From Nematostella vectensis (lineage: Eukaryota), in contig NC_064037.1 of the NCBI RefSeq assembly GCF_932526225.1, positions 3,248,996 through 3,312,995 of the forward strand: a stretch of 64,000 nt of DNA. Reading direction: 5' to 3'. Of the stretch, positions 26,901 through 63,200 are shown in pieces. The translations under genes were made by a program, and so were the position numbers. The first letter of the stretch is position 1. Every line of letters begins with the position of its first letter. The notes beneath the pieces are model-generated. The model was not told where the DNA came from, did not search any database, and worked only from the letters and a program-made list of their open reading frames with translations.

Positions 26901-29900
26901 TTAAGATTGGTACATAATGGGTGGGGGACAAGAGCGGAGGGGGGGTGTCTTTTCTTTATGACGAAAAAGATGTACACTTTATAAAAACTTGACTGTTCTA
27001 GGGACACTAGTGAGTGATGAAATTGGTTTAATCTCATGCTAAATGCAATGCCACAAATCCTAAAAATCCTACTGATCTTGTGGGTTATCAACCACAATAA
27101 CCATAATCATCAATTTGTTATAGAGATTGCTTTGTTTATATTGTTTTGCATACTGTATGACAATCTTTTAAAATGATTTTGTTTATACATCTTTATTTGA
27201 AGGAAGGTGGTTTTTAGATTTTTATGTATGTGTAAGTGTGCACTTCAACTAAGGCTCAGTGCAATGAAAATTTGAGCTGTGCAAGTTAAATACCAAAACT
27301 GTCTGCACATGTGGCTAGTATAAATCATGAGCTTTGAGCCCTAGGTTGACATCGTTTAACCCTCCTGATGTGACGTGATACCTTGTATTTGCAGGCCAAC
27401 CCTCCTCAGTATGATAGAGCAGAGGACCTTGCCACCCTGCGCTACCTTAACGAGTCCAGCTGCCTTCACACCCTGCGTCAACGATATGGAAGTAACCTCA
27501 TCCACACTTACGCCGGACCCAACATGATTGTCATCAACCCCCAGCAGCAGCTTGCCATCTACACTGATAAGGTAAAGTAGCAACTTGCCATCTACACTGA
27601 TAAGGTAAAGTAGCAACTTGCCATCTACACTGATAAGGTAAAGTTGCAACTTGCCATCTACACTGATAAGGTAAAGTAGCAAACTTGCCATCTTCACTGA
27701 TAAGGTAAAGTAGCAAACTTGCCACCTACACTGATAAGGTAAAGTAGCAAACTTGCCATCAACCCTGATAAGGTAAAGTAGCAACTTGCCATCTACACTG
27801 ATAAGGTAAAGTAGCAAAATTGCCATCTACACTGATAAGGTAAAGTAGCAAACTTGCCATCTACACTAATAAGGTAAAGTAGCAAACTTGCCATCTACAC
27901 TGATAAGGTAAAGTAGCAACTTGCCATCTACACTGATATGGTGAAGTAGCAAACTTGCTATCTACACTTATAAGGTAAAGTAGCAACTTGCCATCTACAC
28001 TGATAATGTAAAGAAGCAAACTGAGCAGCTAGAAGCAATTCCAAGAAGTGCAGCAACTTATTCTATGCAAGATCAAATAAACTAGTTCCCTGGCTATCTT
28101 CTTCCCCAGGAACCAACATCTTACAATAATACCTCGAGTTTTAATAAGTAATAGTTTACCCCACAATGTGTTATTCTCCAAGCATCATGATCCCATTATT
28201 GCTAAGGCCTAATATAAACAGCGTTCTCTTCATGTGCTGTTCCAAGTTAAAGTATATGCAAATGAAGATAAAACAACCAACTTTGTTCATTTGCATGTAT
28301 TTGAATTTGGAAGAGTACGTGAAAAGAATGGTATCTAAACTATGCCTAAGTGTTGTGAAGCTTCCTTAAAACTGTGTTAAGCTCCCTTACAGGTTATCCA
28401 GATGCCCTGATGTCATAATGACATCATATTGTGTTGCTATGGCAACACAATATATCATTTTGTTCCTCTTTGTCAGATAATGATTCTTTGAAAATTTGGT
28501 CATAATTGCTCCAATGGTTCAAAAGTTATGGATGGGGGGGGGGGGGGGGGGGGGAGCGCAAGAGCCCCCCAGTCTGAATAGGGTTAAAACTAACTGTGTT
28601 AAGCTCCCTTACAGGTTATCCAGATGTTCCGTGGATGTAAGCAGGAGGATATGCCACCACACATCTTTGCCACAGCCCAGACGGCCTACCGCAACATGCT
28701 CGCAACCAGGATAGACCAGTCTGTGGTGCTGATGGGGTCTAGTGGATCTGGAAAGACGACTTGCGCAAAGCATATCCTCCACTACCTCTCATCGATAGCT
28801 GGCTCTTCTCACTCCCCTGTCACAGGTAACACTGCTATAATTTGGCACATGTCCCCGTTTATTCCTGCTTATAAATATATACCCTTGTATGCCACACCTC
28901 TCTCTGAGAGTCATGTTGACTTGAATCAATGATATACCACTCCTATCTCCTCCTTCAATGCCCACATTTTCTTATAAACAATTTCTGCTTTTGTCTTTCC
29001 AGATCAAAATTTCGAAGGGATCTTTGCACTGTTAGAGTCATTTGGAAATGTGCAGACCATTTTGAACAGGAATGCCACCAGATTTACACTTCTTGTGAGT
29101 CTAGACTTTGATTCAGCAGGAGGACTGACTTGCGGATCCCTGCAGGTAAGCTTGCTTGTCATGCCTGTGGAAAAAAGAATATGTGGAATTGTTGTGGTAG
29201 TGCTAGGAGAATGGTATTGACAGGTGGTGTGCCACACACCTGGTAACATAAGAGGTATAGCGGTGCTAGGTGTAAATAACTAGGACATGAGTTGGAGGGC
29301 TGGCTTGCACGACCTTTCAGATTAGTCATAGTGCAAAAGGAAATGTGATATGTAAATAACAAATAACATCCTTAAATAAAGGTGCAAGTTATGGTGTATA
29401 CAGATAGAGGCCTAGTACTTATGGACCCTTGGCTTATCTACTTGTTTTTCAGACATTTTTGTTGGAGAAATCACGGGTTGTTCGGCAAAAGGAAGGCGAA
29501 GGGACTTTCAACATATTCTATTATCTGTTGTCTGGCAGCGACCCAAAGCTAAGGTAACTAAATGCACAATAATGTACAGTAAGTACATTTGTGAGCCTTC
29601 TGCATGCCTTGTTGGAATCAGTAAATTTAGGATTTTACCCTTTTTTAAATTTGCATAGTCAGTTTTAGCTTGACATTTTGTGTGGGAAAAGTCTGGTAAT
29701 GGCCTTTAAAATTCTCTTTTTCCCCTCGAATTCTCTAAAACATAGATGCCAACCCCCGAAGTTCCAAATCAGATTTTTTGGAGAGTGGAGTTTTATAGCT
29801 TTTTTTATAGCTTCTATATTTGCAGAAACGCGACAACCAGTTTAAAGATTACCACGCATCTTTAAATTTTTCTGAAAATGCATCAATAGCTACGCATTGT

Positions 29901-60236: not shown

Positions 60237-63200
60237 CTGAAAGAAAAGTAAATTCAAAAATAGCGAATTCAACAACCTTAAAGAACGGCTATTTTAAAAA
60301 AACCGGAAAGGACAACGAATTTAGAAACCTGAAAGAATAGAGATAAAAAAAACTCTGAAACAACAGCGTTTTCGAAAACCTGAAAAAATAGCAATACCCT
60401 AAAATAATTGCATTTTCAAAAATATGAAATCTTTCCCCTTATTTCGAGAAAAACGCATTTCGATGGTTGCGACAACAGGTTTTGTCTATCTTGTAGCTAT
60501 GTACCCGGAATTTTTCTTTTCCGCATTTGGCAAATGATATCGTGCTATTAAGGCTTGTTTTGCATGGTAAAATCTAGACAAAGGGATCACAGCTGTGCCC
60601 TAAGAACTTTACATTGAAAGCTGGTTAGGAAACACTTAACTGCTTCACATGGACAAATAGAGAAAACGTCTTGGAACACTTACATATTATCTTTAAAAAT
60701 CCCTTTGTCCATTATCGACGGCAACAGTCCTTTCTGCACGTCGTCAAACTTCATGACCATGGTATCAAACATGTCCACTTCCATCATGTCTAGAACGAAG
60801 GGCTTGCCAAACCTGTAACGACAAGGAAATCAACACACGGGACAGCAAGGCATGCTCCATACATTAGCACACATTACATAAGCGCCGCAAAGTAATCCCT
60901 CCCCTTCCCCCCTAAATTAAAAATGCTGTGACACTCTAGCCGTTCAGTACACGGCAAGCAGTACAGGTAAGCTGCGTATGGCAGTAAAAGTTACGTCATT
61001 ACCACAGGGTACCCTAAACTTACCGGATAGCAGTCATGTCACCACAGGGTACCCAGCACTTACAGGATAACACACATGTCATCACAGGGTACCCAGCACT
61101 TACCGAATAGCACGAATGTCACCACAGGGTACCCAGCACTTTCCGGATAGCACGCATGTCACCACAGGGTACCAAGCACTTACCGAATAGCACGCATGTC
61201 ACCACAGGGTACCCAGCACTTTCCGGGTAGCACGTATGTCACCACAGGGACCCAGCACTTACCGGATAGCACATATGCCACCACAGGGTACCCAGCACTT
61301 TCCGGGTAGCACGTATGTCATCACAGGGAGCCAGCACTTACCGGATAGCACGCATGTCACCACAGGGTACCCAGCACTCACCGGATAGCACGCATGTCAC
61401 CACAGGGTACCCAGCACTTACCGGATAACATACATGTCATCACAGGGTACCCAGCACTTACCGGATAGCACCCAAAAGAGCTAGCCTGATCACCTCGGGC
61501 TCCACTTGGGTGGGGTTCAGGGCATTAATGTAATTAGTGTCTCGATAGCGAAGAAACATGGCCGCTTGCCCAGAGGGGTCAATCAACAGAGGCCACCTGT
61601 AATCAGAACAATGTATTAATAATCAAAACAATGTATTAATAATCAAAACAATGTATTTATTACCAGACACAATGTATTAATAATCAGAACAATGTATTTA
61701 TTACCAGACACAATGTATTAATAATCAAAACAATGTATTTATTACCAGACACAATGTTTTTTAGAGGCCAGAACAATAAATTGATAAGCAACCAGCATGT
61801 ATTTATAAGCATTTAAAAGCAAAAACCCTATTTTGTATCAAGTTCAGTTAAAGTTTATTATATATATGAGGAGATATTGTACAGGAACCACTAATCCGCA
61901 AATAGGATGAGCCGTTCTAGGCGGGCCAGACGTTATTTTGTATTATTTAGAGTTTACAATAAAATTTGTTTTAGAGAGTCACAAATGAAAAAAAAAAAAA
62001 ACAAATGATATATATTGTAAACTAATACAAAAATAAAATAATGTCTGGCGTATAGTATCTTTTAAAACAATGCATTCAAAAGGTAACTCAATGCATTTTC
62101 AAGCAAACATAATGTATATCTACAAGCAAGCACATTGTCTCTGTTTGTAAAAACATGTTTAGGCTTAATACAATACCTGCCACCTGCTGCAATCTTTCCA
62201 CCAACGTCTCTAAACAAGACATCGTCAAGGTCTCGTATCATGACTTTAATACCTTGTAAATTCTCCTCACTTTCACCTAAGAGAGATATGCAATGAGATA
62301 TCATATTACACCACGATCACCAATACAACCCAAAAGAGGGTTTTTTTTATCCAATGGTCCCTTTTTTTGCAGGGACAAATGCTTGCAGAATGCCAGCACT
62401 AAGGAGTGATAAGAATGAGACAATTTATTATAAGCACATCAAAAACTGTCAGTAGTATCTGTTGTAGTAAGTGTTTACCTTTTTTGTCTTGTTTTATCTG
62501 TTCACGTAGTTTTAGTTTAGCCTATGTGACAATGAAATAAAGATATCAATAAAAACAAAAATTTTGGAATGTTTTTTTAAAGAACTGTATATGTGGAAGT
62601 ACTCAAATTTAATAGAGATTTTACAAACCAGTATTTTTTGAGAAAATAATTTGTGGTGCTTTCCAGAACTTTCGTTGCATGCTCTGAGCCTGTGCATGTG
62701 CACTGCACAAGGGAGAGTTGTACCTTGGAAAGCTTTTCTTTAGATGCCTCAGCTTTTTTCTTCACCAACTCAAGTACAGCTTCTGCATCATGGATAGCCT
62801 AAAAAACATACTACAAGAAATAAGATTGCATCGTAACATTAACTTGAAATGACCAAAAATGCCAGAAATAGTATTGCAGTATACACAAGATACAAGTGAC
62901 ATGAGATTATCATACAAAAAATATTTGATTATCTTGTATAATTACTGTATAAGACACATTTGGAGTTACACACCTCATGTTTCAGTTTTTCAATATTGCT
63001 ACAGTATAATGTCTAAAATGGTAAGACAGGAAAATCTTAGACTTGCCTGGATGGTAATCTCTTTCTTGTCCAACTTTCCCTCCTCCATGCAGGAGTCATG
63101 TTCAAATATCCTCTTGTTCAACTCACAATATGCTCTGGTCAGCTGCAAACAAGACAAAAAAAGTAAGCGATTGAAAAATCAATATTTATCTTTTAGAAAT

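What the first reader, a model, noticed from the sequence alone, without database searches (positions are those of the whole stretch)
27395..61600. Tandem arrays seeded on splice junctions: repeat units made of exon-terminal bases plus the splice site itself, at nine or more junctions across two genes
In MYO18 the following introns carry an array, a two-copy tandem duplication, or an abutting array that starts or ends exactly at a splice junction: after exon 3 (33 bp x13), after exon 12 (35 bp x3), before exon 13 (acceptor plus exon start x2), after exon 16 (x2), after exon 22 (88 bp x2 including 27 nt of exon), after exon 27 (37 bp x10, first unit is the donor), after exon 32 (30 bp x22, 4 nt from the donor), and before exon 34 (34 bp x28, unit resembling the acceptor plus exon start). 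In the convergent dynein-like gene, the intron after the 61462-61596 exon has a 40-bp x12 array with unit gctatccg|gtaagtgctggg.... In these cases the unit either contains the exon's last bases plus GTRAGT (or the polypyrimidine-AG plus the first exon bases) or abuts the junction; the intron 14 arrays start 11 bp after a donor or end 25 bp before an acceptor. Ordinary minisatellites are not expected to be anchored on splice junctions this often within about 40 kb. This points to a junction-associated duplication mechanism, for example replication slippage or template switching at sites of stalled splicing or R-loops, or reverse-spliced intron-derived insertions. It is also possible that splice signals nucleate arrays that are then tolerated because the extra sites are intronic. 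The arrays also create trains of cryptic splice sites.
Basis: seen in the sequence. Interest (0 to 1): 0.85.

Follow-up and report, generated by a model that had tools for sequence, protein, structure and literature searches.

The report
Minisatellites that copy splice junctions ("mirages")
Many introns of a myosin-18 gene and a neighbouring dynein-like gene carry tandem repeats whose unit is a copy of the exon end plus the splice site; this structure is real but was already described in amphioxus as "mirage" minisatellites, and its excess at junctions here is only about 2.5-3 fold over a fair chance model.

Summary
I built my own 36-exon model of the + strand MYO18-like gene (full Pfam myosin head; exons 1-13 confirmed end-to-end by an orthologous contig). 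Against it, eight tandem arrays or two-copy duplications contain exon-terminal bases plus the authentic splice site. Two of these are acceptor-side and six donor-side, one of the six in the - strand dynein-like gene. Two more arrays abut a junction within 3-4 nt, and five lie 8-23 nt away.

The arrays are unrelated to each other, so each arose locally. Orthologues from related species lack them. Decoy donors are mostly intact.

Arrays make up 38% of intronic bases, introns are short, and units are 30-90 nt. A randomly placed duplication therefore spans or abuts a junction about 15% of the time: 2.35 expected against 6 of 16 observed, P about 0.02. For distances of 25 nt or less, 11 are observed against 3.6 expected, P about 1e-4.

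The structure matches the "mirage" minisatellites reported in amphioxus Adh3, troponin C, globin and PGBD5 genes. The organism here is unidentified and is probably not Branchiostoma; the best named BCS1 match is a coral. No evidence supports R-loops or reverse splicing. This is a new member of a known kind, and the mechanism is unresolved.

The parts
19522..57276 (+). MYO18-like gene. Large first coding exon 19522-20949, then 36 exons from 26520 to the stop codon at 57276.
   Evidence: Model from my own codon-bias and splice-site dynamic programme. Pfam: Myosin_head positions 2-679 of 679, E=1.5e-128, plus IQ, Myosin_tail_1 and SH3_Myosin-XVIIIa. Exons 1-13 align end-to-end to orthologue L011.
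27551..28022 (+). Donor mirage after exon 2 (27395-27571), 33/34 nt x14. The unit is CTTGCCATCTACACTGATAAG|gtaaagtagcaa, that is 21 exon nt plus the donor.
   Evidence: Twelve of 14 units keep an identical donor. The array is absent from orthologues L001, L002, L009 and L011.
31824..31867 (+). Small CA-rich array (19 nt x2.2) starting 8 nt into intron 9.
32968..33069 (+). Donor array after exon 11, 33 nt x3.1. The unit starts with the last exon base plus gtgagtac. The reading frame stays open through the array.
33410..33520 (+). Two-copy duplication (about 57 nt, 85% identity) of the acceptor region plus the first 23 nt of exon 12 (33498).
34143..35216 (+). 51 nt x21 array starting 10-14 nt after the exon 13 donor (34128). 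The unit contains no splice site.
35745..39751 (+). 30 nt x134 array (4 kb) ending 20 nt before the exon 14 acceptor (39772), directly abutting the polypyrimidine tract.
43347..43435 (+). Two-copy 44/45-nt duplication of the last 10 nt of exon 15 plus its donor: CGAGAAAAAG|gtatctcctagaaaacc.
   Evidence: Read directly from the sequence. Donor scores. Not detected by TRF or the BLAST scan.
43557..43632 (+). 36 nt x2.1 array ending 18-23 nt before the exon 16 acceptor.
44599..44895 (+). 42 nt x7 array that fills most of the 357-nt intron 18, 20 nt from the donor and 40 nt from the acceptor. Its proximity is forced by the intron's size.
47789..47966 (+). 91 nt x2 duplication containing the last 30 nt of exon 21 plus the donor gtaaaaccc.
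50267..50657 (+). 37 nt x4.4 followed by a related 41 nt x6.3 array, starting 5 nt after the exon 26 donor. Every unit carries ATAG|gtgtgt, a diverged copy of ACAG|gtacgt.
52875..53542 (+). G-free, C-rich 30 nt x22 array starting at +3/4 of intron 31. It overlaps donor positions +3 to +6 but contains no donor copies.
54263..55247 (+). Acceptor mirage before exon 33 (55235), 34 nt x29. The unit is 19 nt of intron 3' end plus 15 nt of exon start. Decoy copies read ttAAG, the authentic copy reads tttTAG.
61001..61471 (-). Donor mirage of the minus-strand exon 61462-61596 (dynein AAA_9-like), 40 nt x12. The unit is GTGCTATCCG|gtaagtgctgggtaccctgtggtgacatgc.
61600..61757 (-). 20/41-nt array ending 3 nt before the acceptor AG of the same minus-strand exon.
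45271..46267 (+). Two arrays in intron 19 (45 nt x16 and 28 nt x8) that are not junction-anchored. They count as controls, as do 55547-55748, 56116-56225, 47588-47626 and 25748-26309.

Best explanation
These are 'mirage'-type minisatellites. Short local tandem duplications (30-110 nt) happened to straddle or abut an exon-intron boundary of a pre-existing intron. Replication slippage or unequal exchange then expanded them to between 2 and about 30 copies. This happened in a genome, or at least a locus, with a very high minisatellite birth rate.

A tandem duplication leaves the outermost copy in its original context. The authentic donor (first copy) or acceptor (last copy) therefore stays intact, and every extra copy lies inside the intron. 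That is why such arrays can persist without changing the protein.

What is shown here: the structures, their independent local origins, their youth (related species lack them), and a moderate excess near intron ends, mainly on the donor side.

What is inferred: the slippage or unequal-exchange process, the tolerance of the decoy sites (taken from published amphioxus RT-PCR data, not tested here), and the idea that most of the junction association follows from array density, short introns and unit length. A residual 2.5-3 fold bias remains without an explained cause.
For: - Units of eight arrays are exact or near-exact copies of the adjacent exon end plus splice site.
- Array units are unrelated to each other apart from the 37- and 41-mers, so each arose independently and locally rather than from a mobile element.
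- The intron positions already exist in relatives, and those relatives lack the arrays: L001, L002 and L009 for intron 2, and L011 for introns 1-13.
- A more distant homologue, L010, has its own 108-nt x2 duplication of an exon end plus donor at a different junction.
- Unit variants form higher-order blocks, and in the exon-33 acceptor array the edge copies, including the authentic one, diverge most. This is the pattern expected from unequal exchange.
- Arrays make up 38% of intron bases. Random seeding of unit-length duplications already predicts 2.35 junction-anchored arrays out of 16, against 6 observed.
- The literature describes the same structure as 'mirages' in the amphioxus Adh3, TnC, globin and PGBD5 genes, with normal splicing and length polymorphism.
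Against: - The fair null is still exceeded: P=0.02 at <=5 nt, 1e-4 at <=25 nt, KS P=0.03. Random seeding plus tolerance is therefore not the whole story.
- Duplicated strong donors should be mildly deleterious if anything, which makes an excess harder to explain by tolerance alone.
- The sample is one gene plus one exon of a second gene.
- Splicing behaviour, copy-number polymorphism and the organism's identity could not be tested.
Confidence: 0.65

Rival explanations
1. Splice junctions, especially 5' splice sites, are mutational hot spots for tandem duplication. Possible causes are polymerase or replication-fork stalling at co-transcriptionally engaged splice sites, template switching, or repair tracts that start in the conserved exon and misalign in the polymorphic intron. 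On this view the arrays are seeded there more often than elsewhere.
For: - There is a residual 2.5-3 fold excess over the random-seed null.
- The two intron-13 arrays lie 10-14 nt and 20 nt from the two ends of an intron that is about 640 nt once collapsed.
- Donor-side cases outnumber acceptor-side cases by about 10 to 5.
- One minus-strand exon has arrays at both of its junctions.
- The only diverged two-copy duplication the scan found outside known arrays spans a junction.
Against: - Array boundaries are not focused on the junction base. Exon overlap ranges from 1 to 30 nt, and 81 nt in L010, as random straddling would give.
- The sense strand of most arrays is C>G, which does not favour R-loops.
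- Relatives with the same introns have no arrays, so the splice sites alone are not sufficient.
- The P values are modest and come from a single locus.
Confidence: 0.2
2. The arrays are selected splicing-regulatory elements. Trains of decoy 5' splice sites or acceptor-like units would recruit U1 or U2AF, buffer splice-site choice, or generate regulated isoforms or NMD substrates.
For: - Decoy donors remain intact and, in the exon-2 array, score the same as the authentic site.
- The exon-11 array (33 nt) in the window and the L010 duplication (108 nt) in a homologue from another species are in frame with an open reading frame. Use of a decoy donor would insert 11 or 36 residues.
Against: - The arrays are not conserved in related species.
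- Unit sequences and positions are idiosyncratic.
- Most decoy use would shift the frame or hit a stop codon immediately; for example, GTA AAG TAG follows the exon 2 donor.
- The intactness of decoy sites is explained by the youth or homogenisation of the arrays.
- Published amphioxus cases report no aberrant transcripts.
Confidence: 0.07
3. Assembly artefact: the arrays, or their copy numbers, come from mis-assembly of a heterozygous, repeat-rich genome.
For: Published amphioxus draft assemblies disagreed on mirage copy number. Copy numbers here, for example 134 copies of a 30-mer, cannot be verified from the window alone.
Against: - Units carry structured substitutions and higher-order variant blocks.
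- About 20 arrays with unrelated units occur at different places.
- Two-copy diverged duplications (85-90% identity) are not the kind of thing assemblers create.
- A comparable duplication occurs in an independent long-read metagenome contig, L010.
- Re-sequencing confirmed the amphioxus PGBD5 repeats.
Confidence: 0.05

Closest known systems
Amphioxus 'mirage' minisatellites (Canestro, Gonzalez-Duarte and Albalat, Nucleic Acids Res 2002, Adh3). Also reported in amphioxus troponin C, retinol dehydrogenase, presenilin, globin (PMC3087553) and PGBD5 (PMC3902484) genes.
   Same: Intronic tandem repeats whose unit includes the exon-intron boundary, either donor or acceptor. Units are 10-160 nt and copy number runs from 2 to many. 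The authentic site is the exon-proximal copy. Many decoys keep AG or GT. Edge copies escape homogenisation (searches compared).
   Different: - The organism is unidentified and probably not Branchiostoma. The best named BCS1 match is the coral Acropora at 75%, vertebrates are about 62%, and no hit exceeds 81%.
- The density is unusual: seven junction-spanning cases and one abutting case in one gene, plus one of each in the neighbouring gene.
- Splicing behaviour and somatic or germline instability, both shown for Adh3, could not be tested here.
- I could not read the 2002 paper itself; it is known to me only through the two citing papers.
Intron gain by tandem duplication of an AGGT-containing exonic segment (Rogers 1989; Hellsten et al. 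2011, PMC3265369; potato RdRp case, PMC4974935)
   Same: A short tandem duplication produces duplicate splice signals. The globin paper proposes mirages as a route to new introns.
   Different: The duplications here lie at boundaries of introns that already exist in relatives. No new intron is created.
Ordinary intronic minisatellites/VNTRs, including human tandem repeats associated with splicing variation (PMC10078293)
   Same: Unit size, intronic location, higher-order variant structure and probable copy-number variation.
   Different: The unit itself is a copy of the splice junction, and the arrays cluster at intron ends more than random placement predicts.
Tandem alternative splice sites (NAGNAG acceptors, GYNNGY donors)
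   Same: Repeated splice signals next to the authentic site.
   Different: Those are 3-12 nt apart, two copies, and routinely used. Here the periods are 33-91 nt, up to 29 copies are present, and use would mostly break the reading frame.

Membership tests
Mirage minisatellites (amphioxus) | Head-to-tail tandem repeat with a minisatellite-size unit, located in an intron | tested here: met
   TRF gives periods of 33-91 nt, 2-29 copies and 85-100% matches. Location is relative to my exon model.
Mirage minisatellites (amphioxus) | The repeat unit contains the exon-intron boundary, that is exon-terminal bases plus the splice site | tested here: met
   Met for the exon 2, 11, 15, 21 and 26 donors, the exon 12 and 33 acceptors, and the minus-strand exon donor. 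Not met for the arrays that only abut or lie near a junction: 52875, 61600, 34143, 35745, 31824, 43557.
Mirage minisatellites (amphioxus) | The authentic site is still used and no aberrant mRNA is produced | not testable with these tools
   No transcript data are available. Indirect support only: the exon-proximal copy is the one that preserves the reading frame and colinearity with Pfam Myosin_head and with orthologue exons.
Mirage minisatellites (amphioxus) | Length polymorphism or instability between haplotypes or tissues | not testable with these tools
   Only a single haplotype window is available. Absence from related species shows turnover between species, not polymorphism within one.
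Mirage minisatellites (amphioxus) | Host is a cephalochordate (the taxon in which it was described; not a structural criterion) | tested here: inconclusive
   No exact or >81% protein match was found. The best named BCS1 hit is Acropora cervicornis at 75%, against about 62% for vertebrates. The large first-exon product is not on record. Rfam and tRNA scans found nothing.
Intron gain by tandem duplication of an AGGT segment | The duplication lies inside a formerly continuous exon, and the new intron lies between the copies | tested here: not met
   The same intron positions are present in relatives that have no repeats.
Transposon- or satellite-family-derived arrays | Units are shared between loci, or terminal repeats of an element are present | tested here: not met
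   An all-against-all comparison of 22 unit consensus sequences finds only the adjacent 37- and 41-mers related. The junction-spanning units are copies of the flanking exon.
R-loop-associated repeat instability | G-rich non-template strand, that is positive GC skew on the sense strand | tested here: not met
   GC skew is -0.22 to -0.41 across the largest arrays. In most arrays the unit has more C than G, and the 52875 unit has no G at all.

The most novel reading that the evidence does not exclude
Splice junctions, above all 5' splice sites, may be genuine hot spots for minisatellite birth in minisatellite-rich marine invertebrate genomes. If so, the phenomenon is not peculiar to amphioxus: it would also occur in this unidentified, possibly cnidarian, genome and in a related species (L010). 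This would imply a splicing-, transcription- or exon-anchored repair process that generates tandem duplications at exon-intron boundaries.
Probability: 0.2. Interest if true: 0.7.

Novelty: new member of a known kind. Interest (0 to 1): 0.4.

Why it matters
Duplicated splice junctions are raw material for cryptic splicing, alternative isoforms and, as proposed for amphioxus globins, new introns. Their origin has not been explained since 2002.

This locus is an unusually dense example: seven junction-spanning repeats in one gene, one in the neighbouring gene, and several more arrays that abut or lie near a junction. It probably lies outside cephalochordates, which suggests the phenomenon is broader than reported.

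The analysis also gives a concrete null model. Seeds of unit length are placed at random in introns collapsed to one repeat unit. This model removes most, but not all, of the apparent enrichment, so a genome-wide test with it would settle whether junctions are truly hot spots.

There is a practical consequence as well. Such arrays mislead gene predictors and assemblers, because repeated exon ends are easily annotated as extra exons.

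Tried and rejected
1. Identifying the organism. I tried two protein searches, an exact look-up of the first-exon product, record names of related contigs, a literature search for sample accessions, and Rfam and tRNA scans. All this gives is 'marine invertebrate, closest named protein from a coral'.
2. Reading the original mirage paper. PMC117041 is not held.
3. A full-length reference MYO18 protein for spliced alignment was not available in the databases, so I built a dynamic-programme gene model instead. 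One exon (29003-29145) needed a hand correction, which the orthologue alignments later confirmed.
4. Transposon or shared-element origin of the arrays: rejected.
5. R-loop-favouring skew: rejected.
6. New-intron origin: rejected, because relatives have the same introns.
7. The naive null (array placed uniformly inside its own intron, P about 1e-5 to 1e-7): rejected as too lenient on the claim. It ignores the fact that a unit of length p has p ways of straddling a junction.
8. An ungapped periodicity scan and BLAST scans for further diverged two-copy duplications found only the exon 12 case and missed the exon 15 case that is visible by eye. The denominator for weak duplications is therefore uncertain.
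9. Other genes in the window (BCS1 at 4249-6551 on the + strand, an EndoU-like gene at about 7437-9074 on the - strand) have too few intronic arrays to add to the test.

Full report
**What is in the window.** The window is eukaryotic, about 41% G+C, and very rich in minisatellites: TRF lists 55 rows. The + strand carries a myosin-18-like gene. No full-length reference protein could be retrieved, so I built a gene model by dynamic programming over codon bias and splice-site scores and corrected one exon by hand.

The model has 36 exons from 26520 to a stop codon at 57276, preceded by a 476-codon first coding exon at 19522-20949. Its translation covers Pfam Myosin_head positions 2-679 of 679 in a single stretch (E=1.5e-128), and also matches IQ, Myosin_tail_1 and the myosin-XVIIIa SH3 domain. 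Peptides of exons 1-13 align end-to-end to an orthologous contig, L011, and exons 2-4 align to L001, L002, L007 and L009. This validates those exon ends. From memory only, the tail exons are colinear with human MYO18A.

A convergent minus-strand gene contains the exon 61462-61596, which matches the dynein AAA_9 region.

Junction-spanning repeats, in which the unit contains exon bases plus the splice site:
- Exon 2 donor: 33/34 nt x14, with 21 exon nt plus gtaaagtagcaa.
- Exon 11 donor: 33 nt x3.1, starting at the last exon base.
- Exon 12 acceptor: about 57 nt x2, with 23 exon nt.
- Exon 15 donor: 44/45 nt x2, with 10 exon nt.
- Exon 21 donor: 91 nt x2, with 30 exon nt.
- Exon 26 donor: 37 nt then 41 nt units, about 10 copies, each carrying a diverged copy of the exon end plus donor.
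- Exon 33 acceptor: 34 nt x29, with 19 intron nt plus 15 exon nt.
- Minus-strand exon donor: 40 nt x12, with GTGCTATCCG|gtaagtgctggg.

Abutting a junction without a splice-site copy:
- The C-rich 30-mer x22, which starts at +3/4 of intron 31.
- A 20/41-nt array that ends 3 nt before the acceptor of the same minus-strand exon.

Near a junction (8-23 nt):
- 31824.
- The 51-mer x21 at the 5' end of intron 13.
- The 4-kb 30-mer x134 at the 3' end of intron 13.
- 43557.
- 44599.

Clearly not anchored: 25748, 45271, 46039, 47588, 55547 and 56116.

Decoy donors are largely intact. In the exon-2 array, 12 of 14 units keep a donor that scores the same as the authentic one, and 9 of 12 units in the minus-strand array keep a GT donor. 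Decoy acceptors of the exon-33 array are weak (AAG against TAG).

**Is it more than chance?** There are 16 TRF arrays in 35 MYO18 introns. Arrays make up 38% of intronic bases, and the median intron is about 360 nt.

If an array is placed uniformly inside its own intron, 0.63 arrays are expected within 5 nt of a junction against 6 observed (P=9e-6). That null is unfair to chance, because a duplicated segment of length p can straddle a junction in p-1 ways. I therefore collapsed each array to one unit and let unit-length seeds fall anywhere that is not wholly exonic. Under that null:
- 2.35 arrays are expected within 5 nt (P=0.02).
- 2.67 are expected within 10 nt, against 7 observed (P=0.01).
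- 3.64 are expected within 25 nt, against 11 observed (P=1e-4).

A folded fractional-position test gives KS P=0.03 and z=-2.2. A scan for diverged two-copy duplications outside the known arrays found only one, and it spans the exon 12 acceptor. The junction association is therefore real but modest, about 2.5-3 fold. Much of the striking impression comes from array density, short introns and long units.

**What the arrays are.**
- Unit consensus sequences are unrelated to each other, apart from the adjacent 37- and 41-mers.
- Junction-spanning units are copies of the flanking exon and intron. Each array therefore arose locally and independently, not from a mobile element or an inserted intron.
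- The introns pre-exist. Related species keep the same intron positions but lack the arrays: intron 2 in L001, L002 and L009, and introns 1-13 in L011, which has no minisatellite at all in that stretch. The arrays are therefore young and lineage-specific.
- A more distant homologue, L010, has its own 108-nt x2 duplication made of the last 81 nt of the exon-4 equivalent, the donor, and 27 intron nt. This shows that the same kind of event occurs elsewhere.
- In the exon-2 array the authentic unit is identical to the consensus. In the exon-33 array the authentic terminal unit is the most diverged, and variant units recur in higher-order blocks. This is the signature of unequal exchange with edge copies escaping homogenisation, and it argues against an assembly artefact.

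**Mechanism.** A tandem duplication leaves the outer copy in its original context, so the authentic splice site is never destroyed and all extra copies are intronic.

The best-supported account is local tandem duplication followed by slippage or unequal-exchange expansion in a minisatellite-prone genome, with the decoy sites tolerated. Use of most decoys would break the reading frame or hit a stop codon; for example, GTA AAG TAG follows the exon 2 donor. The exceptions are the in-frame 33-nt exon-11 array in the window and the in-frame 108-nt duplication in the L010 homologue.

The residual junction excess and the donor bias of about 10 to 5 remain unexplained.
- The sense strand of most arrays is C-rich, with GC skew of -0.2 to -0.4, the opposite of what favours R-loops.
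- The units are local copies rather than reverse-spliced inserts.

A junction-focused mutational process cannot be excluded, and I give it about 0.2. A selected regulatory role is unlikely (0.07) given the lack of conservation.

**Comparison with what is known.** Tandem repeats that duplicate exon-intron boundaries were named 'mirages' in the amphioxus Adh3 gene (Canestro et al. 2002). They were later reported in the amphioxus retinol dehydrogenase, presenilin, troponin C, globin and PGBD5 genes. Those reports describe units of 10-160 nt, both donor and acceptor cases, apparently normal splicing, length polymorphism, an unclear mechanism, and a proposed role in intron gain. I could not obtain the 2002 paper itself.

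The structural criteria are met here. Splicing behaviour and instability cannot be tested with these tools. No report outside amphioxus turned up in the held library.

The source organism could not be identified. No protein hit exceeds 81% identity. The best named BCS1 match is the coral Acropora cervicornis at 75%, against about 62% for vertebrates. The relatives occur in marine or host-associated metagenome assemblies. This is therefore probably not Branchiostoma, and may be an anthozoan.

**Verdict.** This is a dense new example, probably in a new lineage, of an already described kind of repeat. It is not a new class, and its cause is still open. A genome-wide test using the random-seed null described above would be decisive.

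Noticed in passing
window 61600-61757 (- strand gene): A second array (20/41-nt units) ends 3 nt before the acceptor AG of exon 61462-61596. This exon therefore has junction-anchored arrays on both sides.
   Followed up: yes
L010 14602-14822: A MYO18 homologue on a metagenome-assembled eukaryotic contig has a 108-nt x2 tandem duplication made of the last 81 nt of the exon-4 equivalent, the gtaac donor and 27 intron nt. It is in frame with an open reading frame, so use of the second donor would insert 36 residues.
   Followed up: partly
window 32968-33069: The 33-nt exon-11 donor array is in frame and free of stop codons. Decoy donors at 33001 and 33034 would add 11 or 22 residues ([11 protein letters not shown]-like) to the motor domain, a possible alternative 5' splice-site isoform.
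   Followed up: no
window 16747-17826: A 1-kb CAT/CAC-rich array with a 174-180-nt higher-order period (and 74-80-nt sub-periods) lies inside a 360-codon open frame rich in His, Ser and Ile. GC skew here is -0.32. Whether it is coding is unknown.
   Followed up: no
window 9341-9560 and 10346-10941: Clusters of a 101-nt repeat (with 78-nt and 22-nt sub-repeats) lie between the EndoU-like gene and the next gene. They may be a dispersed or tandem element family.
   Followed up: no
window 25748-26309: A 35-nt x16 array in the 5.5-kb first intron of MYO18 produces a 183-codon open frame purely through its periodicity. It lies 210 nt from the exon at 26520, so it is not junction-anchored.
   Followed up: partly
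window 52875-53542 and 35745-39751: These arrays are strongly strand-asymmetric. The 30-mer at 52875 has no G on the sense strand, which makes the template strand G-rich with GGG/GGGG runs and possibly G-quadruplex-prone. The 4-kb 30-mer has an AT skew of about +0.5.
   Followed up: no
window 4249-6551 (+) and 7437-9074 (-): Neighbouring genes: a BCS1-like AAA ATPase (exons conserved in L005 and L006) and an EndoU/XendoU-like endoribonuclease. They carry few intronic arrays compared with MYO18.
   Followed up: partly
L009 4300-7966: The first intron of the orthologous MYO18 in a related species holds a 2.8-kb (TCTAC)n pentanucleotide satellite plus an inverted (GTAGA)n block. A different repeat class thus occupies the same gene.
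   Followed up: no
L001 630-645: In a related species the donor of the orthologous exon 2 reads AAA|GTGAGTAATGAGTAATG, a 7-nt x2.3 micro-duplication of the donor itself. This may be the smallest version of the same phenomenon.
   Followed up: no
window 28534-28554: A perfect G21 homopolymer lies in intron 2 of MYO18.
   Followed up: no
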